Counted from the stretch's first letter, positions 1,585 to 62,284 are shown. The stretch: 64,000 nt of DNA from Patescibacteria group bacterium (GCA_040386275.1 JAZKFU010000003.1:46554-110553); one strand, 5' to 3'. Numbers and translations are program-made. The notes: generated by a model not told the origin, from the sequence alone.

Positions 1585-2598
1585 TTATTCTGGATTATAT
1601 GCGCCAAATACTTCTTTACCGCGCTCCCACATTGCTGGTTCATTTTGCAGGAGTAACCAATACCACCATTCACCACCCCAGAGATACTGCGTCGGGTACC
1701 GCGTATCGCGTGCGTACTCTAAAATATCATTGAATTTTTCGACATCCATGCGGGTAAACTGCGTAGCGAGGTCTACTTCAGTCACCGGCGCTACGAGCCA
1801 GGGTTCGGCTGAGAGCTCAATCAAGTAGGTTGGCTTTTCTCCGTACCGCAACGCAATAACTTTTTCCTTAGCGCGGTAAAACCATGGTGGCAAAAATGTT
1901 CTAAATTGACCCAACTCCGGATTCCAAAAATGTACGTACACACTGGTTCCAAACGCATCGCCATGACGATACGCTCCTTCCCATGTACCGAGATTACCGC
2001 TATCAGTGACGAGCACCGGTCTCGTACCATCAAGTGATTTAATTAAGGCGATTTCTTGCTCCAAAAATGCCTCATCCAAAGCGCCACAGTGTTCAAATGC
2101 AAATAGACTAAGGTATGGTTCATTTTCCACTTGCCACATTGTAATAGCAGGACTATCTTTATAGCGATTAATGACCGTTGTCATGTACTCTACAATCTCA
2201 GCCTTTTGAATGTCCCAACTTTGTTCCCGTGCCCAATCAGGCACATGACATTCAGGCCACCGTGGCAAACGTCTGCCTACCGCTAACACGACTGTCGCGC
2301 CAACTTCTTCGGCTTTTATTACCTGGTAATCCAATTCTTCAAAATTATAAATATCTTCACGTGGCTCAATCATCGGCCAGTGTGCCGCGAGACGCAAATG
2401 GCGTATTTGCATTTCATCAAGTAACGCGTCATACGTCTGTTTCCAATCAAGACCCAATTCTCGAGCGTACATAGTATTAAAAGACATACCATAGGTAATA
2501 GTTTCCGGAACCGGTTTGCGCGCCAACACCCACACAATAATACTGAGTACCAGTATCAAAATGATAAGACCAACCACAACCCGTTTAAACCATTTCAT
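1585..2598 (-). CDS. Membrane-anchored glycoside hydrolase, clan GH-A (GH5-like)
   Basis: N-terminal TM anchor. QVENEPY motif (the catalytic acid/base NEP of GH5-type TIM-barrel hydrolases). W/Y-rich. Confidence 0.65.
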   Translation of the reverse strand: MKWFKRVVVGLIILILVLSIIVWVLARKPVPETITYGMSFNTMYARELGLDWKQTYDALLDEMQIRHLRLAAHWPMIEPREDIYNFEELDYQVIKAEEVGATVVLAVGRRLPRWPECHVPDWAREQSWDIQKAEIVEYMTTVINRYKDSPAITMWQVENEPYLSLFAFEHCGALDEAFLEQEIALIKSLDGTRPVLVTDSGNLGTWEGAYRHGDAFGTSVYVHFWNPELGQFRTFLPPWFYRAKEKVIALRYGEKPTYLIELSAEPWLVAPVTEVDLATQFTRMDVEKFNDILEYARDTRYPTQYLWGGEWWYWLLLQNEPAMWERGKEVFGAYNPE

Positions 2599-2649
2599 AA
2601 ATTGATGTTTAAGTATTACTAATATTTAATAAATCATTTAACTCGCAAT

Positions 2650-2768
2650 GACTTTCAGAAACGAGTACAGTGCTAGGCGCGCAAGGACTTTTCTTGTAGA
2701 CGTACTTCTTGTACGGCGGAAAGAAAAGTATCGCAGCGCAACAACGCAATGTGCCGTTTCTGGAAGTC
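2650..2768 (+). repeat. MITE-like intergenic repeat, copy D (short form, ~120 bp) with terminal inverted repeats TTTCAGAAACG...CGTTTCTGGAAG
   Basis: Shares its left end (ctttcagaaacgagtacagtgctagg) and right end (caacaacgcaatgtgccgtttctggaag) with the copies at 5155, 14850 and 18340. Internal hairpin CGTAC-TTCTT-GTACG. Fills the spacer between two minus-strand genes. Confidence 0.7.
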
Positions 2769-2771
2769 ATA

Positions 2772-3704
2772 TCAAGTGAATAAGATGAAATAGCCTGCGG
2801 TAATTACTAAAACATACAGCACCCGCCGCATGACTTCTTTTGGCTTCGCCTCATGAGTGGCGACACTATCGGGCAATAGTGAAGCAAACACAATCGTGAT
2901 TAATAAAATAAATACAAATTTCACTCCATCAAGCGCTTGCACTACCGCCACGTCTCCCAAGTCTGTTGCTTTAAGCAAGAGGAAGGCGGCAACTCCGGCT
3001 AGAATTTTGGCGAGTATCACTAATGCACCGGTCTTTTTAGTAGTTGTACCGGTTTGTTCACGAATTTTTTTGTAGTAGGTAGGGACAAGTAACAGTGAGA
3101 GCGCGAAGAGTACAAAACAGACGCGCGACCAAAAGAAACCATCGTCAAAGTTTGTTTCGAGGAACAAACCCTTCATGGTAATAAAGTGGAGCGCAAAAAA
3201 TAATCCACTGTGAAAAACATGGATGACGTCTTCCATCTTAGGAATGGTTTGTGCTACCAAAAGTGTTCCTAAAGACAGAACTACCACACCCCACATAAAA
3301 TTGGGCGAAAACGCCACATCCAAAAACAAATACACCATTCCGAATGACGAAATGGCCGACACTGCCCCAATCACCGGCATCACGTTTACTGCCTCTGCGT
3401 TACGCAAAGCCGAGTACATCGATACGAGGGCCATAAAAAACGTGTAGGCAGCCAAAAACGACATTGATACCACCTGAATAGTCGGCGACTCAACATTAGA
3501 GAAATGAGGAAACCCGACGGATCGTAACCCGGGAATAAACCCCACCAAATAAATCACCACCCAACCACCAGTTAAAATACACGAATAAAACGCGTAGACG
3601 AAGGGTCGTGGTAGAGCCTTATCGTCAGAAACAATATATTTATCGAGGAATGCCACCAACGCATTAAGGAATTGCCCGAGAGTTGCGAGTAATATCCATG
3701 CCAT
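2772..3704 (-). CDS. Polytopic integral membrane protein (about 9 TM), hypothetical; possible transporter in the glycoside hydrolase locus
   Basis: 310-aa ORF with multiple hydrophobic helices; no recognisable motif. Confidence 0.55.
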   Translation of the reverse strand: MAWILLATLGQFLNALVAFLDKYIVSDDKALPRPFVYAFYSCILTGGWVVIYLVGFIPGLRSVGFPHFSNVESPTIQVVSMSFLAAYTFFMALVSMYSALRNAEAVNVMPVIGAVSAISSFGMVYLFLDVAFSPNFMWGVVVLSLGTLLVAQTIPKMEDVIHVFHSGLFFALHFITMKGLFLETNFDDGFFWSRVCFVLFALSLLLVPTYYKKIREQTGTTTKKTGALVILAKILAGVAAFLLLKATDLGDVAVVQALDGVKFVFILLITIVFASLLPDSVATHEAKPKEVMRRVLYVLVITAGYFILFT

Positions 3705-3711
3705 TATACCT

Positions 3712-4935
3712 CTATTCTACTACAGCATTCGTGATACAAATTTGTTTATACACGTACGCAGAGGAACGAGGGGTTCGCTCTTGCGTAGCGTAATCTACCG
3801 CAATTAATCCAAAGCGCATTCCAAAGCCTAGTGCCCATTCGTAGTTATCAAGCAATGACCAGTACATGTGCCCGCGTACGTCAGCTCCTTTTTCAATGGC
3901 CCGCCAGGTTCCTAACACTTGTCCTTTAATATATTCAGCCCGCATACTATCAGCAGCGTCAGCAACGCCACCTTCTGACACAAACAAAGGTTTGTTGTAG
4001 CGCGCGAGCATCATGAGCGCTGTTTCAATTTTTTCTGGCGCAAAATTCCAATCCATGTCAGTCTTCCGCCAGGTTCTGTCGTCACCAAACTGCGTATAAA
4101 AATAATAATTAAGACCAATCGAATCACAACAGTCTTTCGTGCGATTCATAAATTTGTAGGTCCAATTGTAGTTTGCGATACGGGCTTTGATTTTATTAAC
4201 GAGACTCTTGTTCGCATCAAACACAATTACATGGTGCACAAAACTAACTTCCGTAGTTGGGGAAACTTTTTTAATGGCTTTGTAGGCTGCATTGTGACTT
4301 TTGGCCAAATTTTTCATCACCCGCAAATACAGAAATAACGGATTGATGCCTTTACTCGCTCTTGAATCAAGCATTTTGCCAGAGTTCGTAATAGAAATTA
4401 CATCCGTTACCGCAAAGCGTTTAAATGGAGGCCAACTACCGCGCAACCAGCCGTTACTCGCAAATACATTCGGTTCGTTCATGGTAGAAAAGTGATCACA
4501 AAGGTCACCTAATTGCTCCACTACGTACGCACAATACCGCGCAAAAATTTCGGGTGAATTTTTTTGTTCAAAGCTCCCTTTTTCAGAAAACCATAGTGGT
4601 TGAGTAAAATGCCAAATTGTAACGTAGGGTTTTAGTCCGCGTGCATGTAGGGCCTCGAGCACCTTTCGGTAGTGAACTATTGCCTCTTCATTAAATTTTC
4701 CTGGGGTAGGCTCAATCCGCGCCCACTCGACAGATAATCGGTGTGCGGTGTGGCCAAGCGATTTAGCTAAATCAAAATCAGCTTCGTACCGATTATAGTG
4801 ATCACAAGCGATTCCACATTCAGGCACGCGTCTTGCCCGAGCCGCTTCGGCCCAGTCGGTGTTATCAATACCGCCTTCGACTTGATAACTTGCCGTAGCC
4901 GAACCCCAGTAAAATCCTTCGGGAAATTTTTTCAT
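3712..4935 (-). CDS. Beta-glucosidase, glycoside hydrolase family 1
   Basis: N-terminal FPEGFYWGSATASYQVEGG. TMNEPN (acid/base) and FVSEGG (nucleophile region) motifs. Length 407 aa. Confidence 0.9.
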   Translation of the reverse strand: MKKFPEGFYWGSATASYQVEGGIDNTDWAEAARARRVPECGIACDHYNRYEADFDLAKSLGHTAHRLSVEWARIEPTPGKFNEEAIVHYRKVLEALHARGLKPYVTIWHFTQPLWFSEKGSFEQKNSPEIFARYCAYVVEQLGDLCDHFSTMNEPNVFASNGWLRGSWPPFKRFAVTDVISITNSGKMLDSRASKGINPLFLYLRVMKNLAKSHNAAYKAIKKVSPTTEVSFVHHVIVFDANKSLVNKIKARIANYNWTYKFMNRTKDCCDSIGLNYYFYTQFGDDRTWRKTDMDWNFAPEKIETALMMLARYNKPLFVSEGGVADAADSMRAEYIKGQVLGTWRAIEKGADVRGHMYWSLLDNYEWALGFGMRFGLIAVDYATQERTPRSSAYVYKQICITNAVVE

Positions 4936-6531: not shown

Positions 6532-7263
6532 TTAAAAATCAAGGGTGGCCAAGAAATTAACCGGCGCTAAGTTTTTAAGCCAGACGGTATACAATTCTTT
6601 AATCGCCACTACATCCTTCAGATTATAGAGAGCAATATCACGAAATTGTTTTTTAGAAAACAAATTTGCTACTAGCGTTCCTCGTATCCCATCTAGATTC
6701 GGGCTGGTGATTCCATATGAGCGGCACAAGAGGTGCAATGTTGGTCGGTTACGCATCGCACCGTACCAGGTAAGTTCATCGAGCACATCAATATGATACG
6801 GCATTGATTGCTGAGTCAGGTAGCGATATTTCATTAGCTCTTGAGTCGGCTGAATACCATGCGAAAGCGAACGATGGATAATGTACGGCATAGCAAACGC
6901 ACGGCCGTTAAACGTAACAAACGTGTCGTACTCACGCGCCCCTTCCCAAAACTCTTCCAAGAGTGAGGCTTCTGAACGATTTTTTAAAATAAAGTCTCCC
7001 ACCACTTCGTCTGATTCCCCGCCAGTACCGACATAATACACAGCCCCGTGGGCTCGTTCCAAATCGTATACTCCTAAAGCCACAATTCGTCCGGTAAACG
7101 GTGACAAGCCTAGTTCGTTTTGCACAGTAGTGAGTAACCCCTCTCGTTCTTCGTTAGTGCGTACCTTACGGTCAATCCATGCACGCAAACTGTTTTGGGT
7201 AACCGCATCCAGACTATCCCACGATTCGCCCACTGTTTCTATATCCAAGATAAGTGTGCGCAT
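6532..7263 (-). CDS. RNase H-like 3'-5' exonuclease (PolB exonuclease-domain-like, COG3298/YprB family)
   Basis: N-terminal MRTLILDIETVGE, the acidic Exo I motif typical of DnaQ/PolB-exo-like folds. Confidence 0.55.
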   Translation of the reverse strand: MRTLILDIETVGESWDSLDAVTQNSLRAWIDRKVRTNEEREGLLTTVQNELGLSPFTGRIVALGVYDLERAHGAVYYVGTGGESDEVVGDFILKNRSEASLLEEFWEGAREYDTFVTFNGRAFAMPYIIHRSLSHGIQPTQELMKYRYLTQQSMPYHIDVLDELTWYGAMRNRPTLHLLCRSYGITSPNLDGIRGTLVANLFSKKQFRDIALYNLKDVVAIKELYTVWLKNLAPVNFLATLDF

Positions 7264-7273
7264 ACTCCATAGT

Positions 7274-8050
7274 TTAGAGGGCCACTGGTATCGCTACAAA
7301 ACAATTAAGCAACATGTCTCGTTCGGGAGAGAGATAGTACCGATACACACCCCCTACGGTAGCCCCGCCACATTCATCAGTATCAATACTTGAGGTTTTG
7401 CCAAACAACGTTAACCCGTCAATCGTGTAGCCAATCAACGTACTTTCCCCACTACCACTATACGCAGCCACGTCAGAGTTACGAATCGGCATTCCCGTTG
7501 GTGAAACCGCCACAATATCCGACGCAATACAATCAGTCACTCCCAAATCACCTGACCGGAGTGGTAACGTAAAGACAATGGTAGGACTGGTGGTTGTAAT
7601 AGTGCTCGAGGCATCTCCCATGACAGTTTCCATTTTAGAAAACGTACGTTGTCCCGCTGATTCACTGTAGAGTAATCCACCGGTTAATTGCGGCACATTA
7701 ACTGCTCGATAATTTGCACACAACTGCACGGTTGCGACTGTTTCTGGCTCTGTTTCCTCACTAGTGGTAGCAGTCACGTCAGGTTCTGTATTTACTTCCT
7801 CTGGAGTGGGCGCTAGCGCCACATCGGTAAAGGTTGATAGTTTCTTGCGTAACGCTTCTAATCGGCTTTGTTTATCATCAGTCGGAGTGCCGATTTCTGC
7901 TGTCATGGTTGCAGTTTCAGTCCCAAACAACATCTCTCGATAGCTCGTAGTTGAACTACCGTCAGCGGAAAACCAAAGCGTCAGCACAATACCGGCAAGC
8001 AAAAACGCCAGCAATAAAATAAACAAAAAGAAATTCCGCGTCCGTATCAT
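7274..8050 (-). CDS. Hypothetical membrane-anchored secreted protein (T/S-rich)
   Basis: ORF 7274..8098; likely start at MIRTRNFF, followed by a TM anchor. No known domain. Confidence 0.45.
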   Translation of the reverse strand: MIRTRNFFLFILLLAFLLAGIVLTLWFSADGSSTTSYREMLFGTETATMTAEIGTPTDDKQSRLEALRKKLSTFTDVALAPTPEEVNTEPDVTATTSEETEPETVATVQLCANYRAVNVPQLTGGLLYSESAGQRTFSKMETVMGDASSTITTTSPTIVFTLPLRSGDLGVTDCIASDIVAVSPTGMPIRNSDVAAYSGSGESTLIGYTIDGLTLFGKTSSIDTDECGGATVGGVYRYYLSPERDMLLNCFVAIPVAL

Positions 8051-8109
8051 AGTACTATCATAACAAAGATAGCGGGCTTTGCCCGCTATCGTATCCACCT
8101 TTAAGGAAG

Positions 8110-9390
8110 TTACTTAATCTTTATTTTAACCAATTGCTCCACTCGCCTAATATCAGCTAACAATGCGCCTCGATTAGTGTTACTCATATATAAATTAAAG
8201 ACTGATTTACCACCATTTCGAGCAAACATTGCACGGTCACCAATTTTTTTATTGATTTCAATTTTATAAAACGATTCTAATTGTTCAATTTTTTTTATTC
8301 CCGTCATTGAAGTAATGACACCCTCTTTGGGTAAAAACCATTTCATGTACACAGCGGTGCCACTACATTTTTTTGGTATTTTTGGCTTACGAGGAATGCG
8401 AATTAAAATATCATTGAGTGGGTGATCAATATTACAACTAAGAGAATAGAGCTTATCTCGTGCACCGCCCATACGTGGACCAACTTCAATCACTTTAAAT
8501 TCCCCATCGATTTTCATTAATTCAGTGTGCGCTGTAGTACTTCGCAACCCTAAGGCATGAATAGCAGTCTCAGCCACCCGCTCAGCGCGTTCTATTGTAT
8601 CTCGCTTTAATATAGTGGGGGTCATCTGTTGATAGCCATAAAAATCTTGATGTCCAATATCTTTACCGGTTTTTACGCGCACTAATGGCAAATGATATAC
8701 CCCACCTCGTGAATTAACATAACTATCAATGGAATAGATATCCCCCTCCATATATTCTTCAGCAAGAAGTTTAGGCTCTTCTAGACGCTTATCTTTTTCG
8801 TAGGCTTTTCGAATTTTACGAAAACAGGTCGCTAGTGCTTTCTTAAGTTCATCTTCGTGGTAGCAAATTGAAACAAACAAACTACCCGACAAATTTGCCG
8901 GCTTAATTATCATGGGAAAACCAATTTTTTCAATGAGGCGTTTACTTTCTTTTTCAGAAACGTCTTTAATGAGTGTAAAACGAGGAGTCATTTTTGGGTC
9001 GTACACTTTAAAACGCTTACGCATTTCATATTTATCAGTGGACCATGACAAAGAATCACTGGTTGGTGTCCGCAAATACGGCACATGAGGAATAATTTTT
9101 GCAAACCGGGCAATATTTGTTTCAGTACGACAGGTTATTGCGAGCAGTTCATCTTGGTATGGAAAAAGAGCTTCGCTAATTTTACTTGGTTTTGTAAAAT
9201 CTATTTGTAATACAATATCAAAACGATCTGCATTTACCGGTAGCGGTGTTTTATTGTCCCAAATTAACATCAATCTATATGCAGTTTTGGTATCTTCGGC
9301 GTATTTTTTAAGACTGCGTACAGAAGAACCGTGAGCACTCATCACAAAAGCTATGATATTTTTTAAATCAGCTTTTTTCATAGCGGTCAA
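8110..9390 (-). CDS. ATP-grasp family carboxylate-amine/thiol ligase
   Basis: MIIKPANLSGSLFV, EEYMEGDIYSID and VIEVGPRMGG segments match the ATP-grasp central and C-terminal subdomains. AT-rich (~38% GC). Confidence 0.7.
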   Translation of the reverse strand: MTAMKKADLKNIIAFVMSAHGSSVRSLKKYAEDTKTAYRLMLIWDNKTPLPVNADRFDIVLQIDFTKPSKISEALFPYQDELLAITCRTETNIARFAKIIPHVPYLRTPTSDSLSWSTDKYEMRKRFKVYDPKMTPRFTLIKDVSEKESKRLIEKIGFPMIIKPANLSGSLFVSICYHEDELKKALATCFRKIRKAYEKDKRLEEPKLLAEEYMEGDIYSIDSYVNSRGGVYHLPLVRVKTGKDIGHQDFYGYQQMTPTILKRDTIERAERVAETAIHALGLRSTTAHTELMKIDGEFKVIEVGPRMGGARDKLYSLSCNIDHPLNDILIRIPRKPKIPKKCSGTAVYMKWFLPKEGVITSMTGIKKIEQLESFYKIEINKKIGDRAMFARNGGKSVFNLYMSNTNRGALLADIRRVEQLVKIKIK

Positions 9391-9492
9391 TAATTAGGAA
9401 ATGAAGGTTAGAGAGTGGGAAGTTTGCTTTTTTTGCGCTCCCAAATTTGATTTATAATACCACATATGTTATAAAATAGCAACATTTAACCT

Positions 9493-10242
9493 ATGATAAT
9501 CCACCATACTGAAAAACATCGCTGGATTAAAGAAATTGACCCCTCAATATTCCCTGATTTTGGAAAAAATAATTCTAAGAAAATTCAATCCCTCCTCAAA
9601 GACATTTCCACTACGACCATTACCCATTCGTTTGAATTACTGACGACAGAGCATATTTCCTGGTTTGAAAAACTCTATAATGCTAATTTAGCAACGAAGC
9701 ACAACCCTCGTCCGTATGATGTATATGGGACAACCTTAGGGAAAGACATTATTATACATCCCTACCACATTTTAATCCTCTACGAAGCAGGAGTCCCAAT
9801 TGGTGGTACAATTTTCACATTACGAAAAGAACGCCTTTCGATGGTGTATCGTACCTACCCTTCTGACTGGTCTTTGCATTCATTCAAATGTTCACCCGCA
9901 CTCTACGCAGAGTATATTGCCACTGAACATGCCTTAGCGAACAAGCTACCGTTTTTAGTCCACGGTGTGGATTTAAACCCCTATGGAGTCCATTCAAATG
10001 TTGGGGTGGCAATTTTTAAATTATCGACTGGATGTCATCCCGAGATTAAACCTAGCTATTCGATTCACGAAACGGACCTCAACACACTGCCTTATAACTC
10101 TCTTATCCTTGAGGCTCCTGTAGCGGGGAATAAAATTATACAGGGGTATATAATTGGAAATGAAGAAACTGCTCAAAAATACGAACAACTATTTAAATAT
10201 AGTGATCAGCTACAGGTGACACTCTATACTCCCACTCTATGA
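9493..10242 (+). CDS. FemAB/BioF2-like GNAT-fold transferase domain protein, paralog 1
   Basis: Paralogous to 10239..10973 (HSFELLTTEHISWFEKLY vs YTIETLTRDHLAWFEPMY; VGVAIFKLSTGCHPE vs IGLAIFKISLGYKPY). The FK..G signature is reminiscent of FemAB-type peptidyl transferases. Divergent from the ATP-grasp gene, with a TTGATT-17-TATAAT-like promoter. Confidence 0.45.
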   Translation: MIIHHTEKHRWIKEIDPSIFPDFGKNNSKKIQSLLKDISTTTITHSFELLTTEHISWFEKLYNANLATKHNPRPYDVYGTTLGKDIIIHPYHILILYEAGVPIGGTIFTLRKERLSMVYRTYPSDWSLHSFKCSPALYAEYIATEHALANKLPFLVHGVDLNPYGVHSNVGVAIFKLSTGCHPEIKPSYSIHETDLNTLPYNSLILEAPVAGNKIIQGYIIGNEETAQKYEQLFKYSDQLQVTLYTPTL

Positions 10243-10973
10243 TAATTACTATTCCTGATAAAGTAAGTTGGCGAAAAACTATCGGCACCGATAGTTTTTC
10301 TCACTACAACAAAACCAACGCAAAACGTATCCTCAAAACGTTTACTCATCAAATGAGGGACGAGATTGCCTACACGATTGAAACACTTACTAGAGATCAT
10401 CTAGCTTGGTTTGAACCAATGTATGTTGCCAAAATTGCTCAAAAAGATAATCCTCAAATTATTAATCTCTATGAGACTACACTCAATAAAGTGAAGCGAG
10501 ATTTTAAAATTTTAATCATAACTGAAAGTGAGGTTAAATTAGGAGCTATTATTTTTTCAGAGAACGCTACCGAAGTAAATATTAGCTATAAAATTTTTGC
10601 CGACACCTGGAATATGAGCACTCTTCCAGCGGGTCCTTCATTGTATGCAGATTTTTTACTCACAGAACATGCAGCACGGTCACAAAAAATTACCATAAGC
10701 CATGGAAAAGATAGAAATGGTTATGGCATGACTTCAAGTATTGGTTTGGCTATATTTAAAATCTCTCTAGGATACAAACCCTATCTTCCAAAAAAATATG
10801 AGTTTATAAGTATGGATGACACCCAAATTACAAAAGATTCTTTATATTTTACGGTTACTTCTGAAGATTCTTCACTGGTAGGTAATTTATACACAACTAA
10901 AGACACACAGCACCAGTGGGAGCGATTAAACAGTTACAAGGATCAAGTAGTAATTAACTGGATTATCCGCTAA
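10239..10973 (+). CDS. FemAB/BioF2-like GNAT-fold transferase domain protein, paralog 2
   Basis: 4-nt ATGA overlap with the upstream paralog (operon). Same conserved blocks. Confidence 0.45.
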   Translation: MIITIPDKVSWRKTIGTDSFSHYNKTNAKRILKTFTHQMRDEIAYTIETLTRDHLAWFEPMYVAKIAQKDNPQIINLYETTLNKVKRDFKILIITESEVKLGAIIFSENATEVNISYKIFADTWNMSTLPAGPSLYADFLLTEHAARSQKITISHGKDRNGYGMTSSIGLAIFKISLGYKPYLPKKYEFISMDDTQITKDSLYFTVTSEDSSLVGNLYTTKDTQHQWERLNSYKDQVVINWIIR

Positions 10974-10983
10974 GCACATCGCT

Positions 10984-12318
10984 TTACGTTATTCCAATAG
11001 ACTGCAGAAAGTGAACATGTTGTTCATTAGTGGGATCAAATTTCCCCGCATCAATAGTAATGTCGGGTAAGGTATTATTTTTCACCGCCTCCCAATGACG
11101 CATATTTCCTTTCCGATATATTAAATCTTTGGTAAACACTACACCCGGAACCATACCTGAAGTCCCTCGAAATATTCGCACACATCGATTCCACGCCAGT
11201 TCTTTTGCATGTTCAATTGAGGTATTTTCCGTTATGAGAAAATAATCAGTCATCAGTGCATGAGTTTGAGAAAAATTTCGCGGATGAGCACCATCAGATC
11301 CAAGTGCCAAACCAATAGCCAAATATGCCTCTAACCCCGAATATCCTTGCAAAGATTGCGCTTGTTGCTCACGATAGGTTGCTAGTCCTTCTTCACCTTG
11401 CTCATACTGATGTAATCCCACTCCTAATAATTTTAATACGGAACGTTCCCCCCGTATCTTACGAACGACGTGCGTTCCAATTTCATGAGCAATCAGTCCC
11501 CGCACTCGTGCTTCTGTTAACCGTTTACGTTTACTTCGTTTAATTAATTGTTCACTACTTGGTAAATAAATTTTCTGTAAATTATAAGAAACAGAAACAG
11601 TCGAACGAGCACCTTTACTATCGACTACTACACTCCAGCTGTCGTCTATACCATACTCTTTAAATCCTTCCTCAAAAATATTTTTAAGGAGGCCTGCATC
11701 AGTAACCGCAGGTGTTCGAGACACTACAATTCGCGGAGTCACTTCAAGACTTACGAAATGAGGATGTGACTTTTTATAAAATGAAAATAAAGCTTTTAAT
11801 CGTTCTACAGATGGTGTATGTTCGTTATTAAAATTTGGTTTAGCTATCATTCTATTAATTTCTCGCTCAGCTGTCTGCATCACTTTTAAAAAAATGTCGG
11901 CATCAACAGTACCATACAGTTGCTTTGAATACTCGAGAAATAAACGCATGCTCATTTCTGGATTAACATCTCGACCCAGGGCCTGTGTTTGACGAAGTAA
12001 TTTGATTTTAGATAATCGTTCTTCTATAGCTAGATGGTATTGCTCTTTAATTACCTGAGGCAATTCATCATCGTGAGCAAGATCTTTATGGAGCTCATGG
12101 AGCAAACCCTCTGGTTTGTCATAATTATTACGATTATTTTTAGTATACGTAAAAATTGGGTGTGGGATTTCACCTCGCAAAAATATTTCCTTACCTTTTG
12201 TAAGACAATACAAGTCCGGTCGAATACTACTTAACACTGAAACTTTTGCGTGTTGATATTTTTTAAATATTTTTTCGTCAAACGCTTCGTTATCAAAGGT
12301 ATTGCCCGTATCACGCAT
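10984..12318 (-). CDS. Zincin-like metallopeptidase-fold protein (HExxH; DUF1704/QEGLA-family-like)
   Basis: LIAHEIGTHVVR HExxH motif and downstream EQGEEGLATY, resembling the QEGLA motif of DUF1704 proteins that accompany ATP-grasp ligases. Confidence 0.45.
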   Translation of the reverse strand: MRDTGNTFDNEAFDEKIFKKYQHAKVSVLSSIRPDLYCLTKGKEIFLRGEIPHPIFTYTKNNRNNYDKPEGLLHELHKDLAHDDELPQVIKEQYHLAIEERLSKIKLLRQTQALGRDVNPEMSMRLFLEYSKQLYGTVDADIFLKVMQTAEREINRMIAKPNFNNEHTPSVERLKALFSFYKKSHPHFVSLEVTPRIVVSRTPAVTDAGLLKNIFEEGFKEYGIDDSWSVVVDSKGARSTVSVSYNLQKIYLPSSEQLIKRSKRKRLTEARVRGLIAHEIGTHVVRKIRGERSVLKLLGVGLHQYEQGEEGLATYREQQAQSLQGYSGLEAYLAIGLALGSDGAHPRNFSQTHALMTDYFLITENTSIEHAKELAWNRCVRIFRGTSGMVPGVVFTKDLIYRKGNMRHWEAVKNNTLPDITIDAGKFDPTNEQHVHFLQSIGIT

Positions 12319-39636: not shown

Positions 39637-40623
39637 ATGAGCTTAGATATTTCTCTAAAACATGTTCTAGGCATTTACCGCTCACCAAACCTTATTGTGT
39701 ATAGAAGTTTTTCTAACAAAGACACTATCACTATCATCGGTCGAGTCGTTGAAAGTATTGAAAAATCAACACCATCTTCACTTATAGGAAACGCTCTTTC
39801 ATTGCTACGTAATTACCTAGCCAAGCCGTACAATAATATTGAGGTGACTATCATTTCAGATAGTAGCATCACTAAATCCATCACCAATGTTAATGGTATT
39901 TTTGAAGTAGTAGTCCCATTTGCAGAGAATATACGCGTGAAGCTCGGGGAGAAAATTCTATCAGTGGAAATTGCGGCCTCGTCTAATAATGCCGCGTATG
40001 GAATAATCTCTGATATTGATGACACTATTCTTATTTCAAATTCGGCTCGAACATTGAAACTTCTCTATCTCCTCTTTACAAAAAATGCACACTCTCGGAA
40101 ACCCTTCCCCGGAGTGGCCGAATTCTATCAAGCCTTAGTAGAAAATAATAATCCGATTTTTTACGTATCATCAAGTGCCTGGAATATCTATAACCTTCTC
40201 ATTGAGTTCATGGAAATCAACCATATACCGAAAGGTCCGTTACTTCTAAAAGAAGTCGGTGGAGTTCGTTCCATATTCAAGACGGCGGGAAAACACGGAC
40301 ATAAAAGTGAACGCATCAAAATGATTCTTGAGAAGTATCCTCATCTACCGTTCATCCTTATTGGTGACAGTGGCCAGCGTGATGCCGAAATATACAGCCT
40401 CATCGCCAAAGAATACCCTGATAGAATAAAGGTAATTTATATCCGTGATGTAACCTTGCGTGAAAATGAAATTGTAAAAAAAGCTATTAATACCTTAGAA
40501 AATAAAGTCGAGTTGGTACTTGTAAAAACTTCAAAAGAAGCAGCCGACCACGCTCTGCAAAAAGGATATATTACAAAACGAGAGAAAGAGAATATTAAAG
40601 AGGGTGTTGTGATGGAACAGTAG
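39637..40623 (+). CDS. APP1-family phosphatidate phosphatase-like protein (DUF2183, HAD-like)
   Basis: GIISDIDDTILISN (the SDIDDT catalytic motif of App1-like phosphatases). Confidence 0.55.
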   Translation: MSLDISLKHVLGIYRSPNLIVYRSFSNKDTITIIGRVVESIEKSTPSSLIGNALSLLRNYLAKPYNNIEVTIISDSSITKSITNVNGIFEVVVPFAENIRVKLGEKILSVEIAASSNNAAYGIISDIDDTILISNSARTLKLLYLLFTKNAHSRKPFPGVAEFYQALVENNNPIFYVSSSAWNIYNLLIEFMEINHIPKGPLLLKEVGGVRSIFKTAGKHGHKSERIKMILEKYPHLPFILIGDSGQRDAEIYSLIAKEYPDRIKVIYIRDVTLRENEIVKKAINTLENKVELVLVKTSKEAADHALQKGYITKREKENIKEGVVMEQ

Positions 40624-41524
40624 TTCGAGGAATAATCATGCACAATGACTGGGGAATTATCTTGTAACGTAATGGAGTCTGTAGCTTTATAACTTCCCCA
40701 TCGAGTGAAACCCATACCTTGGACTTATTAGCATGTATTTCAATCTCATCAATCGCAGTTGTCGTAAACCCTAATTGGTTCTTTACATCCATAAACAAAG
40801 AACGGAAAGCTAAAAGAAATATCCTCCATCTGCCCATCTCCTTCGCTATTGAAAGTTGAAGCTTGCCTGAAGTAAAATCCTGCCTGCTTGATAATACATC
40901 CAGTCCACCAAAATCAAATATATTGTTTCCTACAAATATGAGCGGTGTTCGCACCTTCATTTCTGAATCATTTTTTTTAATCACAAATGAATACGACGAA
41001 TATTCTTTCATACATTCATACATCGACATACCAAAAGCGGGCCATTTTTTCCATGATTTTTTCTGATAGGCTGTCCTTCGTTTTATAATTTGCGTATAAA
41101 ATCCAATACAAGAGAAGTTTACAAACGTTCGGCCGTTCACCTCAGCCGTATCAATATTGATAGTTTCACCCGTCATGACAGTGTCAAAGGCTTGAGGAAT
41201 ATTAGTACCGATACCAATATGTTTTGCAAAATGATTGAAGGTTCCTGCTGGAATGACCGCCATACGAATGGATGACCCGGTGAGGTAATTTGCAACCAAG
41301 TTAACCGTCCCATCACCCCCTACAGCAATAATGGTTCCTGGAGATAGTGACTCCACTTTTTTATCAAACATTTCTTTTTCCAGAATATCTTCAACAGATA
41401 CAGTAGTCACTTCAAAACCATATTCTGTAAGCGAGACTATCCCCTCCTCAATTTCTTTTTGTATTTTCTGCTCACCCAAAGCAAGACCAGATTTTGAGTT
41501 CCTAATAAGAAGGATAGGTTCCAT
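40595..41524 (-). CDS. DAGK_cat-domain lipid kinase (YegS/BmrU family)
   Basis: IIAVGGDGTVNLVAN glycine-rich ATP-binding motif. Its 3' end overlaps the convergent APP1-like gene by 29 nt. Confidence 0.8.
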   Translation of the reverse strand: MEPILLIRNSKSGLALGEQKIQKEIEEGIVSLTEYGFEVTTVSVEDILEKEMFDKKVESLSPGTIIAVGGDGTVNLVANYLTGSSIRMAVIPAGTFNHFAKHIGIGTNIPQAFDTVMTGETINIDTAEVNGRTFVNFSCIGFYTQIIKRRTAYQKKSWKKWPAFGMSMYECMKEYSSYSFVIKKNDSEMKVRTPLIFVGNNIFDFGGLDVLSSRQDFTSGKLQLSIAKEMGRWRIFLLAFRSLFMDVKNQLGFTTTAIDEIEIHANKSKVWVSLDGEVIKLQTPLRYKIIPQSLCMIIPRTTVPSQHPL

Positions 41525-60494: not shown

Positions 60495-61211
60495 TTACGA
60501 TTTAGTATCAAACAATAACTCTTGAGCCTCCAATAAACAGTTTACATCACCACTAAATAAAAGTTCATCTCCAACAAAAATGTAGTGCATAAATCCTTGT
60601 GAACCGTCAGAAAAAAGAACATTTGCTCGACGTACAGTTATATAGTCTATGTCAGTCATTGTCGTAAAATCTGCCTGTTGAATTATCGTTCCTTTACTAC
60701 TTTCCTTAGGAAAAATAATTGGGGCAACATCTGCTACAAGGCTTTTTTCCCATTCTTTTAAATATTTCATTTGATCTGCATACAAATCACCTTGATAGTT
60801 AAATTGCAATTTAAAACGAAGGGACATAACTACATTTGAGTTTTGTGATGCAGTAGCACACTTGTATAACTTCCAATCATTTACATCAATTAGACTACTG
60901 ATGTTGCTATTTATTTTCCCATTTAAAACTGTCGCAAAAGTTTCAATCGATATATTCCCTTCATTACCCGCAAATGCAGACCAAGTATTTTCTGTTTTAG
61001 TTGCACTTAGAAATTCAGTAAAGTTATTTTTCAAGTCCTGGTTAAATTCATTACTATTGTCATCAATGACCGTTTCGAATGCCACATAGTCGTTTTCAGA
61101 ATCAAGTTGAGTTACGGGAGTTGTAGATCTTTTTTGCATAATCGTTACCACTATTAAAATCAGTAGTACGGTTATTGTGAGGAAAAAAAACAATATAATT
61201 TTTTTATTCAT
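60495..61211 (-). CDS. Hypothetical membrane-anchored protein, AT-rich (~33% GC)
   Basis: ORF 60495..61232 with start at MNKKIILFFF and an N-terminal TM. No domain recognised. Composition differs sharply from its neighbours. Confidence 0.45.
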   Translation of the reverse strand: MNKKIILFFFLTITVLLILIVVTIMQKRSTTPVTQLDSENDYVAFETVIDDNSNEFNQDLKNNFTEFLSATKTENTWSAFAGNEGNISIETFATVLNGKINSNISSLIDVNDWKLYKCATASQNSNVVMSLRFKLQFNYQGDLYADQMKYLKEWEKSLVADVAPIIFPKESSKGTIIQQADFTTMTDIDYITVRRANVLFSDGSQGFMHYIFVGDELLFSGDVNCLLEAQELLFDTKS

Positions 61212-61222
61212 AGTGGATATAA

Positions 61223-62284
61223 TTATCTGCAAAAAGTTGATGCTCGCAATACTCTGTATCGGCTATCACTGTAATAACCACTGCCATTACTAATAATAAT
61301 TCCTCTGTTTGTTCCTGCAGCATGGATAACTTGTGAACAACCATTATTCATACAAATTACCACATGACCTGCGCCATTAGTTCTATGAATCAATGCATCG
61401 CCAGTTTGAAGACTGCTAGGGCTACCGATGGGAGCGGAGTAGCGTATCATATCTCCCGTATAAGTACCGATTCGACGACATCCTGCTGCAGCATATGCAT
61501 CGTTAACAAGCTCAGAACAGTCTGTATAGCCCGGACTACCAGTACAAGAATTTCGAAGAGGCTGACTATATTGGCATCGTCGTTGTCGTTGTGCTTCCGC
61601 AAACCGTACAATAGCACTATTGCCTCCAGTACCAATTGGAGCTACATAATCTCCTCCACCGCCGCCCGCACCACCACCACCTAACTCAGACCCAGGTACA
61701 GCTACCGCGGTTGGATCTGGCTCTTCTGCCTCAAGGTATTCTACTTCATCTTGCTCGACCTCATTAAATACAGTTTCAACTTGGTTCTGGCAAGTTACCT
61801 CACTCCAAAACAAATACCCAGAAGCGGTTCCGCCCGCGACAATTTGCCCAGGATTACCATCTGTTCCAACTAACGCCCGCATGATGGTGTCTACAATAAG
61901 CCAGGCAGCTAAAATAATCATAAAGCCAACAATGGCGTTTATAAATGAGGACTTGGCTTCATCGAGCGCATGATGATTCCCCCCTGACGTTACCAACTTC
62001 ACTCCCGCAATAGCGAGCAAAAGTGCGAAGATAACAAATAGTATCCCAATGAGCCAGGTAATTAATCCATTGGCCATCGACACAACATTACAAGCGCTAC
62101 AATCTAAACCAGTACAACCCGACAACTGCGCTAAACCAAGGTCACCTGCAAACGCAGACGGCACAAAAAACCCAAACAGAAAGACTAGTAAGAATATTAT
62201 GGGAACTATTTTCATATTATAGTTTGGCAGTATCGGGACAGAAACTAAACCGGTAATCAAACCCAGAAGCAACTTCATCAACAT
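61223..62284 (-). CDS. VirB2/TrbC-pilin-like double-TM module fused to a CHAP/NlpC-P60-type peptidoglycan amidase/peptidase domain
   Basis: Signal peptide (MKIVPIIFLLVFLFGFFVPSAFA), Cys-rich loop CTGLDCSAC, two hydrophobic helices around KLVTSGGN...EAKSS, Gly-rich linker. C-terminal DCSELVNDAY (Cys) and GHVVIC (His) resemble a CHAP catalytic pair. Start may be the internal Met. Confidence 0.55.
   Translation of the reverse strand: MLMKLLLGLITGLVSVPILPNYNMKIVPIIFLLVFLFGFFVPSAFAGDLGLAQLSGCTGLDCSACNVVSMANGLITWLIGILFVIFALLLAIAGVKLVTSGGNHHALDEAKSSFINAIVGFMIILAAWLIVDTIMRALVGTDGNPGQIVAGGTASGYLFWSEVTCQNQVETVFNEVEQDEVEYLEAEEPDPTAVAVPGSELGGGGAGGGGGDYVAPIGTGGNSAIVRFAEAQRQRRCQYSQPLRNSCTGSPGYTDCSELVNDAYAAAGCRRIGTYTGDMIRYSAPIGSPSSLQTGDALIHRTNGAGHVVICMNNGCSQVIHAAGTNRGIIISNGSGYYSDSRYRVLRASTFCR

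What the first reader, a model, noticed from the sequence alone, without database searches (positions are those of the whole stretch)
8110..12318. AT-rich accessory cluster: ATP-grasp ligase, two paralogous FemAB/GNAT-like transferases and a zincin-like HExxH protein
Seen directly: a divergently transcribed ATP-grasp enzyme (8110..9390) faces a tight pair (4-nt overlap) of paralogous ~245-aa proteins with FemAB/BioF2-like blocks (FK..G). A convergent 444-aa protein follows, with HEIGTH and EQGEEGLATY motifs reminiscent of DUF1704/QEGLA zincin-like proteins. The segment is ~38% GC against ~46-50% in the flanks. From established knowledge, ATP-grasp amidoligases partnered with GNAT-fold peptidyl transferases and zincin-like peptidases are the core of predicted peptide-tagging / small peptide-metabolite synthesis systems, as in the amidoligase comparative-genomics literature. 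The canonical DUF1704 triad also includes a 7TM-transglutaminase, which is absent here and is replaced by duplicated FemAB-like transferases. Inference: a variant, possibly aminoacyl-tRNA-dependent, peptide ligation/modification system acquired horizontally.
Basis: partly seen in the sequence, partly recalled or inferred. Interest (0 to 1): 0.65.

Follow-up and report, generated by a model that had tools for sequence, protein, structure and literature searches.

The report
Hybrid ATP/tRNA-dependent peptide-building gene cluster
A candidate-phyla-radiation bacterium carries a conserved locus that pairs an amino-acid-joining ATP-grasp enzyme with two copies of an unrecognised, unusually small relative of the tRNA-using Fem cell-wall transferases and a trimming metallopeptidase, most likely to build and trim a short peptide without the ribosome; the peptide and its target are unknown.

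Summary

X is tied to ATP-dependent amide ligases in at least six independent gene contexts, including a 753-aa ATP-grasp::X fusion. The LAL + X + X + MATCAP set recurs in a distant MAG. In Paceibacteria the LAL sits in conserved synteny facing a slot whose content changes by lineage: X; X+X; X+MATCAP; X+X+MATCAP; X+RimK; or RimK-like ligases only.

The horizontal-acquisition claim is not supported. The locus is syntenic across lineages, and its low GC is shared by the vertically inherited LAL.

Best reading: a modular, template-free peptide ligation and trimming system with an unknown product. It is a new variant of a known kind. X is an undescribed compact Fem-like family of about 300 clusters.

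The parts
8110..9390 (-). Core L-amino-acid-ligase-type ATP-grasp enzyme. The likely true start is ATG 9381, giving 423 aa.
8068..8090 (-). Terminator-like hairpin directly after the ATP-grasp stop codon. It implies the ATP-grasp is its own transcription unit.
   Evidence: 10-bp stem with 7 G-C pairs and a T-rich tail. A pattern match only.
9391..9492 (.). 102-bp divergent intergenic region between the ATP-grasp and X1, the presumed bidirectional control region.
   Evidence: Coordinates and sequence. No Rfam match. Promoter scan uninformative.
9493..10242 (+). X1: a compact (249 aa) Fem-like GNAT-fold transferase, predicted to be aminoacyl-tRNA-dependent. This is the usual X copy of the slot.
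10239..10973 (+). X2: a paralog of X1 (244 aa) that is translationally coupled to it by an ATGA overlap. It is an optional second transferase.
   Evidence: 31% identity to X1, E 3e-44. It keeps every invariant residue of alignment A1, including H-G-x-D-x-N-x-Y-G and G-x3-F-K-x3-G. X2 orthologues are present in L001, L008-L010, L026, L033, L047, L056 and L066.
10984..12318 (-). MATCAP/DUF1704-family gluzincin metallopeptidase (444 aa), convergent with X2. It is an optional slot component.
   Evidence: PF08014 at 67.1 bits. HExxH aligns with human MATCAP/KIAA0895L, PDB 7z5g. H278, E279, H283, E310, G311, E317 and Y401 are invariant across nine X-linked MATCAPs from different lineages.

Best explanation
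The cluster encodes a ribosome-independent, template-free peptide ligation and trimming module. It combines the two known chemistries for making amide bonds outside the ribosome.

**Proposed steps**
1. The LAL-type ATP-grasp activates a carboxylate as an acyl-phosphate and joins two free amino acids, or an amino acid and a small amine, into a starter dipeptide.
2. X1 and then X2 each transfer one residue from an aminoacyl-tRNA onto a free amino group of that product. They are compact Fem-like GNAT transferases that use the invariant Lys176, with no acetyl-CoA site. Each extends the product at its N-terminal or side-chain amine, much as FemX, FemA and FemB add residues one after another.
3. The MATCAP-type zinc carboxypeptidase removes C-terminal residue(s), for maturation, editing or recycling of the peptide.

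In sister lineages the same slot opposite the LAL holds other one-residue 'modules': a RimK-type ligase, other ATP-grasps, or a cyanophycin-synthetase-like Mur ligase. The product is therefore predicted to differ between lineages.

**Shown:** the folds, the family relationships, the intact active-site motifs and the conserved gene linkage.

**Inferred:** aa-tRNA as donor, the order of the steps, and a small free peptide as product. I put the enzymology at about 0.7 and a small soluble peptide as the target at about 0.4.
For: **The ATP-grasp is an LAL-type enzyme**
- Pfam gives ATP-grasp_4 plus a weak LAL_C2, and PDB sequence hits are to the same LALs.

**X belongs with the aa-tRNA-dependent GNATs**
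- Foldseek top 18 are all from that group, E 1.7e-7 to 5e-5.
- K176 is the only invariant residue in 103 diverse members. It lies in the helix after strand beta-5, in a G-x3-[FY]-K motif. Published work identifies Lys305 of FemXWv and Phe328-Lys329 of DhpH-C as the key residues (PMC12945691).
- No Q/RxxGxG/A acetyl-CoA loop lies between beta-4 and alpha-3 (sequence).
- 7 of 103 members weakly hit PF13480, and others hit FemAB_like, Mig-14 and LPG_synthase_C.
- Four proteins match both the X profile (1e-12 to 1e-18) and PF13480 above its cutoff.

**Gene linkage**
- X sits next to an ATP-dependent amide ligase in about 40 loci, covering at least six independent contexts.
- The contexts include the 753-aa ATP-grasp::X fusion in L042, single-strand operons in L015, L032, L065 and L068, and LAL + MATCAP + X + X + RimK in the distant L070.
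- MATCAP is linked to X in 15 or more loci and keeps an intact active site.

**Precedent**
- An LAL paired with a carboxypeptidase is known: LdmS and HmrA in S. aureus (PMC9486568).
Against: - No biochemical data exist for any member.
- X1 and X2 themselves hit no Fem-type Pfam or NCBIfam model. Profile searches against PDB sequences find nothing. The Fem link therefore rests on fold and on transitive sequence links.
- All characterised aa-tRNA GNAT transferases have two GNAT domains. X has one full GNAT core, so acceptor binding must differ.
- The equivalence of K176 to FemX Lys305 was not checked by superposition.
- No dedicated tRNA gene or T-box lies nearby.
- The ATP-grasp appears to be a separate transcription unit with its own terminator-like hairpin. 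Some lineages have the ATP-grasp with no X at all, so the LAL does not strictly need X.
- Nothing identifies the acceptor.
Confidence: 0.5

Rival explanations
1. The enzymology is the same, but the acceptor is a cell-envelope precursor. The module would build or vary a peptidoglycan side chain or cross-bridge, or a peptide decoration on a wall glycopolymer. ATP-grasp ligases would add residues as D-aspartate ligase does, and Fem-like X enzymes would add Gly or L-amino acids from aa-tRNA. Lineage-specific swapping of modules would give lineage-specific wall chemotypes.
For: Established knowledge, restated in PMC2922099: D-amino-acid cross-links are made by ATP-grasp ligases, and Gly/L-amino-acid cross-links by Fem GNAT ligases. 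Cassette-like variation of the ligase set within fixed synteny resembles the variation seen in interpeptide bridges. Some X operons include envelope enzymes: an LCP (LytR_cpsA_psr) protein in L015, a GT2 glycosyltransferase and ATPgrasp_ST in L027 and L038, and VanY two genes away in L070. The window neighbours DsbA and the membrane-anchored YHYH-like protein are extracytoplasmic.
Against: X lacks the second GNAT domain that binds UDP-MurNAc-pentapeptide in FemX (for FemX; for X). The ATP-grasp groups with free-amino-acid ligases, not with Ddl. No mur, lipid II or flippase genes lie in the window cluster or in most related loci. The LCP and GT2 links occur in only a few loci.
Confidence: 0.2
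2. The module is a protein peptide-tagging and de-tagging system. The ATP-grasp and RimK-type ligases would add residues to a protein C-terminus or Glu side chain. X would add residues to a protein N-terminus, like L/F-transferase or ATE1. MATCAP would remove the C-terminal tag. This would be a bacterial analogue of the tubulin tyrosine ligase / MATCAP cycle or of RimK and ribosomal protein S6.
For: MATCAP-family enzymes are protein C-terminal carboxypeptidases in eukaryotes (Pfam description; alignment to KIAA0895L). RimK-type ligases occupy the same slot. ATPgrasp_ST fused to the RimK-associated retropepsin-like domain PF05618 is linked to X and MATCAP in L027 and L038. ATE1 and L/F-transferase are among the structural matches.
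Confidence: 0.15
3. X1 and X2 are ordinary acyl-CoA or aminoacyl-CoA dependent N-acyltransferases, or non-catalytic GNAT-fold scaffolds. They would cap or acylate the LAL product and would not use tRNA.
Against: There is no pyrophosphate-binding Q/RxxGxG/A motif. All the best structural matches use aa-tRNA. The invariant Lys sits in the position and motif typical of Fem-type enzymes. In L017, X is clustered with a true LPG_synthase_C protein.
Confidence: 0.1
4. The four genes are a recently acquired AT-rich island, or functionally unrelated neighbours in a compact genome.
For: GC is 4-10 points below the flanks. The ATP-grasp looks monocistronic. CPR genomes are gene-dense, so adjacency alone is weak evidence.
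Against: The same synteny block is found in relatives down to about 42-44% X identity. The low GC also applies to the vertically inherited ATP-grasp and recurs in most of the 17 loci compared. Linkage of X to ATP-dependent ligases and to MATCAP recurs outside this synteny, including a gene fusion.
Confidence: 0.04

Closest known systems
Fem/MurM-type aminoacyl-tRNA-dependent GNAT transferases and their natural-product relatives (FemXWv, FemX/A/B of S. aureus, Sbb17/Sba18/Orf11, DhpH-C, PacB, VlmA; also MprF C-domain, ATE1, L/F-transferase)
   Same: X shares the GNAT fold and has these enzymes as its best structural matches. It has a single invariant Lys in a G-x3-[FY]-K helix motif, like FemX Lys305 and DhpH-C Phe328-Lys329. 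It has no acetyl-CoA loop. Paralogs arranged in tandem suggest sequential single-residue additions, as with FemX, FemA and FemB.
   Different: X is about 250 aa with one complete GNAT core plus short N- and C-terminal elements, whereas characterised members have two GNAT domains. X1 and X2 match no existing Fem, PF13480 or MprF model directly. All taxon-labelled examples come from CPR/Patescibacteria records, and the acceptor is unknown.
L-amino acid ligases (BL00235, BacD/YwfE, RizA, LdmS)
   Different: Identity to any characterised LAL is only 17-20%, and the specificity is unknown. Here the enzyme is highly conserved across a whole CPR class and faces a variable set of further ligases, rather than sitting in an antibiotic gene cluster.
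MATCAP / DUF1704 (PF08014; human KIAA0895L tubulin detyrosinase; bacterial 'QEGLA' proteins, TIGR02421)
   Same: The Pfam hit is above threshold, and the HExxH plus EEGLA gluzincin motifs are intact and invariant.
   Different: The score is far below the TIGR02421 equivalog cutoff, 61 against 339 bits. The protein is linked to Fem-like transferases and an LAL. The RimK / transglutaminase partners recalled from the amidoligase literature could not be checked against the paper here.
Predicted amidoligase peptide-synthesis and peptide-tagging operons (Iyer, Abhiman, Burroughs & Aravind 2009; Aravind et al. 2010, PMC2922099)
   Same: The concept matches: operons that combine ATP-grasp, Mur-like and GNAT-fold (aa-tRNA) ligases with peptidases to make peptide metabolites or tags.
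   Different: This CPR family, its compact architecture and the 'constant LAL plus variable ligase slot' organisation were not found in the literature searched. The 2009 paper itself could not be read.

Membership tests
ATP-grasp superfamily, L-amino-acid-ligase (LAL) group | ATP-grasp domain recognised by a curated profile | tested here: met
   PF13535 ATP-grasp_4 at 67.8 bits against a cutoff of 27.
ATP-grasp superfamily, L-amino-acid-ligase (LAL) group | LAL-specific C-terminal domain and overall LAL architecture | tested here: met
ATP-grasp superfamily, L-amino-acid-ligase (LAL) group | ATP-dependent ligation of free L-amino acids into a dipeptide or oligopeptide | not testable with these tools
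   Needs an enzyme assay.
Fem/MprF/ATE1-type aminoacyl-tRNA-dependent GNAT transferases | GNAT fold whose closest structural relatives lie in the aa-tRNA-dependent clade | tested here: met
Fem/MprF/ATE1-type aminoacyl-tRNA-dependent GNAT transferases | Sequence membership in a Fem-type profile (PF02388, PF13480, PF04339 or PF09924) | tested here: inconclusive
   X1 and X2 have no hit. 7 of 103 family members hit PF13480 weakly, and 2 hit FemAB_like. Four bridging proteins match both X.hmm (1e-12 to 1e-18) and PF13480 above its cutoff. PDB sequence and profile searches were negative.
Fem/MprF/ATE1-type aminoacyl-tRNA-dependent GNAT transferases | Conserved catalytic Lys (FemXWv Lys305, DhpH-C Lys329) in the helix after beta-5 | tested here: met
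   K176 is the only invariant residue among 103 diverse members. It lies in helix 170-178, after strand 154-161. Its three-dimensional equivalence to Lys305 is inferred and was not superposed.
Fem/MprF/ATE1-type aminoacyl-tRNA-dependent GNAT transferases | Tandem double-GNAT architecture with the acceptor site between the domains | tested here: not met
   X is 244-249 aa with one complete GNAT core (about residues 43-185) plus short N- and C-terminal elements. About 170 residues align to the 285-400-aa enzymes. The review states that all characterised members have two GNAT domains.
Fem/MprF/ATE1-type aminoacyl-tRNA-dependent GNAT transferases | Use of aminoacyl-tRNA as the donor | not testable with these tools
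   Needs an assay with charged tRNA. The indirect support is the absence of the acetyl-CoA Q/RxxGxG/A loop.
MATCAP / DUF1704 gluzincin peptidases (PF08014) | Profile match above Pfam's gathering score | tested here: met
   67.1 bits against a cutoff of 27.
MATCAP / DUF1704 gluzincin peptidases (PF08014) | HExxH zinc motif plus the downstream (Q/E)EGLA glutamate | tested here: met
   H278-E279-x-x-H283 and E310-G311 are invariant in nine X-linked homologues. HExxH aligns with human MATCAP, PDB 7z5g.
TIGR02421 'flavohemoglobin expression-modulating QEGLA motif protein' (equivalog) | Score above the equivalog cutoff | tested here: not met
   61.2 bits against a cutoff of 338.65. The protein is a distant relative, not an orthologue.
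Peptidoglycan cross-bridge machinery (Fem transferases plus ATP-grasp D-Asp-type ligase) | Genomic or architectural link to peptidoglycan precursors (a UDP-MurNAc-peptide-binding domain, or mur / lipid II genes) | tested here: inconclusive
   No such domain in X and no mur genes in the cluster. Sporadic links exist to LCP (L015), GT2 (L027) and VanY (L070).
Known anti-phage defence systems (PADLOC) | Match to any defence-system protein model | tested here: not met
   No hits for the four proteins or for two neighbours.

The most novel reading that the evidence does not exclude
CPR/Patescibacteria have a previously unrecognised minimal peptide assembly line in which single-residue modules are swapped like cassettes opposite one constant L-amino-acid ligase. 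The modules are compact aa-tRNA-dependent 'mini-Fem' enzymes, RimK-type ligases, cyanophycin-synthetase-like ligases and other ATP-grasp ligases. X1 and X2 would work as a heterodimer that recreates the two-GNAT architecture of classical Fem enzymes. MATCAP would act as the dedicated reversing or trimming enzyme, a prokaryotic counterpart of the tubulin ligase / MATCAP cycle. The product would be a lineage-specific peptide or poly-amino-acid. In these amino-acid-auxotrophic episymbionts it could serve as an amino-acid store, an envelope decoration or a host-interaction molecule.
Probability: 0.2. Interest if true: 0.8.

Novelty: new variant of a known kind. Interest (0 to 1): 0.58.

Why it matters
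- **A new enzyme family.** The work defines an unannotated family with no Pfam or NCBIfam model: about 300 clusters at 50% identity, and all taxon-labelled examples come from CPR/Patescibacteria records. These are the smallest Fem-like, probably aa-tRNA-dependent, transferases seen so far. They are attractive as minimal tRNA-dependent peptide ligases for biocatalysis, and for understanding how acceptor recognition works without the second GNAT domain.
- **Unexpected capacity in reduced genomes.** Even about 1-Mb symbiont genomes keep, and keep diversifying, a hybrid ATP/tRNA-driven non-ribosomal peptide module. That points to an important, unknown peptide in CPR physiology, envelope structure or host interaction.
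- **A route into bacterial MATCAP function.** The recurrent pairing of MATCAP with amide ligases gives bacterial context for the origin of the eukaryotic tubulin detyrosinase. It also offers a tractable route to the unknown function of bacterial DUF1704 proteins.
- **A testable prediction.** The slot architecture predicts that product structure should track slot content.

Tried and rejected
1. Direct Pfam and NCBIfam scans of X1 and X2 gave only noise (Lactamase_B_6, FliG).
2. Profile searches of PDB sequences with A1, A2 and a bridging PF13480 protein gave no meaningful hits. K176 could therefore not be mapped to FemX Lys305 by sequence.
3. hhalign of A2 against the LPG_synthase_C protein of L017 was insignificant, at probability 0.2%.
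4. A Pfam scan of the ten most divergent family members found none of the PF13480 hitters.
5. The Foldseek afdb50 library was unavailable.
6. The search for related loci failed on A2 and A3 because they are too divergent. My first hand-made DNA pattern had a spacer one codon too short and found nothing. The corrected pattern gave 49 loci.
7. No tRNA genes lie near the cluster in the window or in nine related loci. There is no T-box or other Rfam element.
8. No PADLOC defence match was found.
9. The apparent 830-bp 'gaps' in L023 and L044, suspected to be decayed X genes, turned out to be intact X genes that my ORF filter had missed.
10. The Iyer et al. 2009 amidoligase paper could not be retrieved. 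Literature searches for DUF1704/MATCAP with ATP-grasp, and for Patescibacteria with FemAB/ATP-grasp, found no description of this system.
11. Recent horizontal transfer was considered and rejected on synteny and on the low GC shared across lineages.
12. The YHYH-like and exonuclease genes downstream of the ATP-grasp were considered as system members. They were set aside because a terminator-like hairpin separates them from it, although the exonuclease's recurrence in L015 remains unexplained.

Full report
**1. What is in the sequence**

A 426-aa ORF lies on the minus strand at 8110-9390. A 102-bp divergent intergenic region separates it from two plus-strand ORFs, 9493-10242 (249 aa, 'X1') and 10239-10973 (244 aa, 'X2'). 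These two overlap by ATGA. A convergent 444-aa ORF at 10984-12318 follows 10 bp after the X2 stop.

X1 and X2 are true paralogs, at 31% identity and E 3e-44. The GC dip is real: 0.35-0.40 per gene, against 0.42-0.47 for flanking genes and 0.442 for the window.

A 100%-identical X1 is annotated as 'hypothetical protein' in a Patescibacteria MAG. The window looks like ordinary CPR chromosome: topoisomerase I, exonuclease VII, P-type ATPase, GH3 and an M23 peptidase.

**2. The individual proteins**

*ATP-grasp.*
- Pfam gives ATP-grasp_4 at 67.8 bits and a sub-threshold LAL_C2.
- The best PDB sequence hits include the L-amino-acid ligases BL00235, BacD and RizA.
- It is therefore an LAL-type enzyme by fold.
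- Its family is large and unusually conserved: 1576 clusters, with more than 120 at 62% identity or above.
- Most homologues are 423 aa, which argues for the ATG at 9381 as the start.

*The 444-aa protein.*
- It belongs to PF08014 (MATCAP, formerly DUF1704) at 67.1 bits.
- Its HEIGTH aligns with the HExxH of human MATCAP/KIAA0895L.
- In nine X-linked homologues from different lineages, H278, E279, H283, E310-G311 (the EEGLA motif), E317 and Y401 are invariant. The peptidase site is intact.
- It is not an orthologue of the TIGR02421 'QEGLA' equivalog, scoring 61 against a cutoff of 339 bits.

*X1 and X2.*
- Neither hits any model in Pfam or NCBIfam.
- An exhaustive profile search of 1.84 billion representatives found 300 family members, 79 of them below 1e-30. 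Nearly all full-length members are about 250 aa.
- A model of X1 built on 17 sequences is confident, at pLDDT 93.8.
- Foldseek agrees independently. Its top 18 are Sba18/Sbb17, MprF, FemX, ATE1 and A-/L-PGS, at E 1.7e-7 to 5e-5.
- In an alignment of 103 diverse members, the only invariant residue is K176. Near-invariant positions are W11, F58, Y62, G104, G158, D160, N162, G165, G171 and P183.
- K176 lies in a G-x3-[FY]-K-x3-G motif in the helix after strand beta-5.
- A 2026 review states that Lys305 is the only reactive residue in the FemXWv active site. It also states that Phe328-Lys329 are essential in DhpH-C (PMC12945691). The match of K176 to these residues is an inference from motif and topology, because I could not superpose coordinates.
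- There is no Q/RxxGxG/A acetyl-CoA loop between beta-4 and alpha-3.
- At sequence level, 7 of 103 members weakly hit PF13480. Single members hit FemAB_like, Mig-14 and LPG_synthase_C.
- Four metagenomic proteins match both the X profile (1e-12 to 1e-18) and PF13480 above its gathering score, and their alignments retain the G-D-N-YG...GLAAYK block.
- X is thus a divergent, compact branch of the Fem/BioF2-like GNAT group.
- One defining feature is not met. All characterised aa-tRNA GNAT transferases have two GNAT domains, whereas X has one complete GNAT core (about residues 43-185) plus short N- and C-terminal elements.
- X2 retains every residue that is invariant in alignment A1, so both copies look active.

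**3. Gene-neighbourhood evidence**

I collected 70 loci by exact-protein look-ups, a genome scan and a hand-made degenerate DNA pattern for the family motif.

In Paceibacteria and Kaiserbacteria the chromosome backbone is conserved: Exo, YHYH-like, LAL, then the slot, DsbA and MTase. The slot opposite the LAL varies:

| Slot content | Loci |
|---|---|
| X only | L024, L048 |
| X+X | L001, L023, L026, L033, L044, L047, L054, L056, L066 |
| X+X+MATCAP | window, L008, L010; L009 (ATP-grasp not on the contig) |
| X+MATCAP | L035, L041, L062, L067 |
| X+RimK | L002, L005, L006, L012-L014, L029, L039 |
| No X; one to three RimK-like or ATP-grasp_4 ligases | L018-L020 |

Collinear operons also exist: LAL-RimK-MATCAP-X (L068), LAL-AG320-X (L032) and LAL-X (L065).

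Outside this synteny, X recurs with other amide ligases:
- **L015 (Kerfeldbacteria):** X'-X, an ATPgrasp_ST-like ligase, LCP, MATCAP.
- **L017:** ATP-grasp_4, X, LPG_synthase_C, X.
- **L027 and L038:** ATPgrasp_ST fused to the retropepsin-like PF05618 domain, with X, MATCAP and, in L027, a GT2.
- **L050 and L060:** X with a Mur-ligase-like protein that best matches the M-domain half of cyanophycin synthetase. L060 also has an ATP-grasp_4, and L050 a divergent MATCAP.
- **L042:** a 753-aa fusion of an ATP-grasp with an X domain.
- **L070 (a distant MAG):** LAL-type ATP-grasp (26% identity to the window's), MATCAP, X, X and a RimK-like ligase, next to gltX.

The linkage of X to ATP-dependent ligases and to MATCAP is strong and recurs independently.

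**4. Horizontal transfer**

Horizontal transfer is not supported. The synteny spans relatives down to about 42-44% X identity. The low GC also applies to the highly conserved LAL. It recurs in most of the 17 loci compared, whose locus GC ranges from 0.38 to 0.48. It is an old property of the locus.

**5. Transcription and regulation**

A strong terminator-like hairpin lies at 8090-8068 on the minus strand, directly after the LAL stop codon. This suggests the LAL is monocistronic and that the YHYH-like gene starts at Met17. No tRNA gene, T-box or other Rfam element is present. There is no PADLOC match.

**6. Mechanism**

The best-supported reading is a modular, template-free peptide ligation and trimming system.
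- The LAL makes a starter amide bond through an acyl-phosphate. This is the established ATP-grasp mechanism (PMC9486568).
- X1 and X2 each add a residue from aa-tRNA to a free amine. This is the Fem-type mechanism of substrate-assisted catalysis with one Lys.
- MATCAP trims C-terminal residues.
- The alternative slot occupants (RimK, other ATP-grasps, CphA-like Mur ligase) are all single-residue or poly-residue amide ligases. Slot content should therefore dictate product structure.

Folds, motifs and linkage are shown. The donor, the order of steps and the acceptor are inferred.

The rivals differ mainly in the acceptor:
- **A cell-envelope precursor.** This has some support from the LCP, GT2 and VanY links and from the known split between ATP-grasp and Fem enzymes in cross-bridge synthesis (PMC2922099).
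- **A protein terminus.** This is the RimK/S6 or TTL/MATCAP analogy.
- **X as an acyl-CoA enzyme.**

**7. Novelty**

The concept of mixed ATP-grasp / GNAT / peptidase amidoligase operons is known from comparative genomics (Iyer et al. 2009, cited, and PMC2922099). Three things were not found in the literature I could search: the compact single-GNAT X family, the fact that every taxon-labelled example comes from a CPR/Patescibacteria record, and the organisation of a constant LAL with a cassette-like ligase slot. I rate this a new variant of a known kind, of moderate to good interest. The product and the acceptor remain open.

Noticed in passing
window 8068-8098 and 7274-8098: A strong terminator-like hairpin (10-bp stem, 7 G-C pairs, T tail) lies inside the 5' end of the YHYH-like ORF as listed with its GTG start at 8098. 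Homologues are 253-269 aa, so the true start is probably Met17, near 8050.
   Followed up: partly
window 9381-9390: The ATP-grasp ORF as listed starts at TTG 9390 (426 aa). The identical NCBI protein and nearly all homologues are 423 aa, which points to ATG 9381 as the start.
   Followed up: partly
window 6532-7263; L015 5457-7070: A PolB-exo-like 3'-5' exonuclease (PF10108 / RNase_H_2) lies two genes from the ATP-grasp in Paceibacteria. It appears again just after MATCAP, together with a PD-(D/E)XK / Cas4-like nuclease, in the unrelated Kerfeldbacteria operon. The recurrence is unexplained.
   Followed up: no
L042 93-2354: A 753-aa protein fuses an N-terminal ATP-grasp (ATP-grasp_3, residues 218-332) to a C-terminal X domain (residues 536-722, E 6e-36). 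This is a Rosetta-stone fusion. The assembly was not verified.
   Followed up: partly
L070 2281-4332: A true glutamate-tRNA ligase (TIGR00464 at 334 bits, above its cutoff) is 683 aa long, with a large insertion or extension (weak NUDIX hit). It sits divergently next to the LAL/MATCAP/X/X/RimK cluster, and a VanY D,D-carboxypeptidase lies two genes downstream.
   Followed up: partly
L021 2170-3465, L025 3156-4454, L036 1523-2758, L037 3015-4202, L040 3121-4419, L046 4925-6112: Proteins of 395-432 aa share the X-family G-D-N-YG...GLA..K motif (X profile E 1e-12 to 1e-14); the three scanned (L021, L025, L036) have no Pfam hit. In five of the six loci they lie beside a ~362-aa protein (an SBP_bac_8 solute-binding protein in L021, the only one scanned; L025's 212-aa neighbour runs to the locus edge). 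They may be another uncharacterised Fem-like family.
   Followed up: partly
L050 2186-3460; L060 1743-3014: The X-linked Mur-ligase-like proteins (about 424 aa) best match the C-terminal Mur-like half of cyanophycin synthetase. In L060 the protein is paired with a separate ATP-grasp_4, which resembles a split CphA.
   Followed up: partly
window 60495-62284: The lowest-GC ORF in the window (60495-61232, GC 0.32, no Pfam hit) overlaps the end of a T4SS_pilin + NlpC/P60 protein (61223-62284).
   Followed up: no
window 39637-41524: A convergent pair of lipid enzymes also has low GC (about 0.38): an APP1-like phosphatidate phosphatase and a DAGK_cat diacylglycerol kinase.
   Followed up: no
window 1585-4935: Three ORFs of 337, 310 and 407 aa match, by length and order, the GH42-like / 310-aa unknown / GH1 block that flanks the cluster in all the Paceibacteria loci. 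The window copies were not scanned.
   Followed up: no
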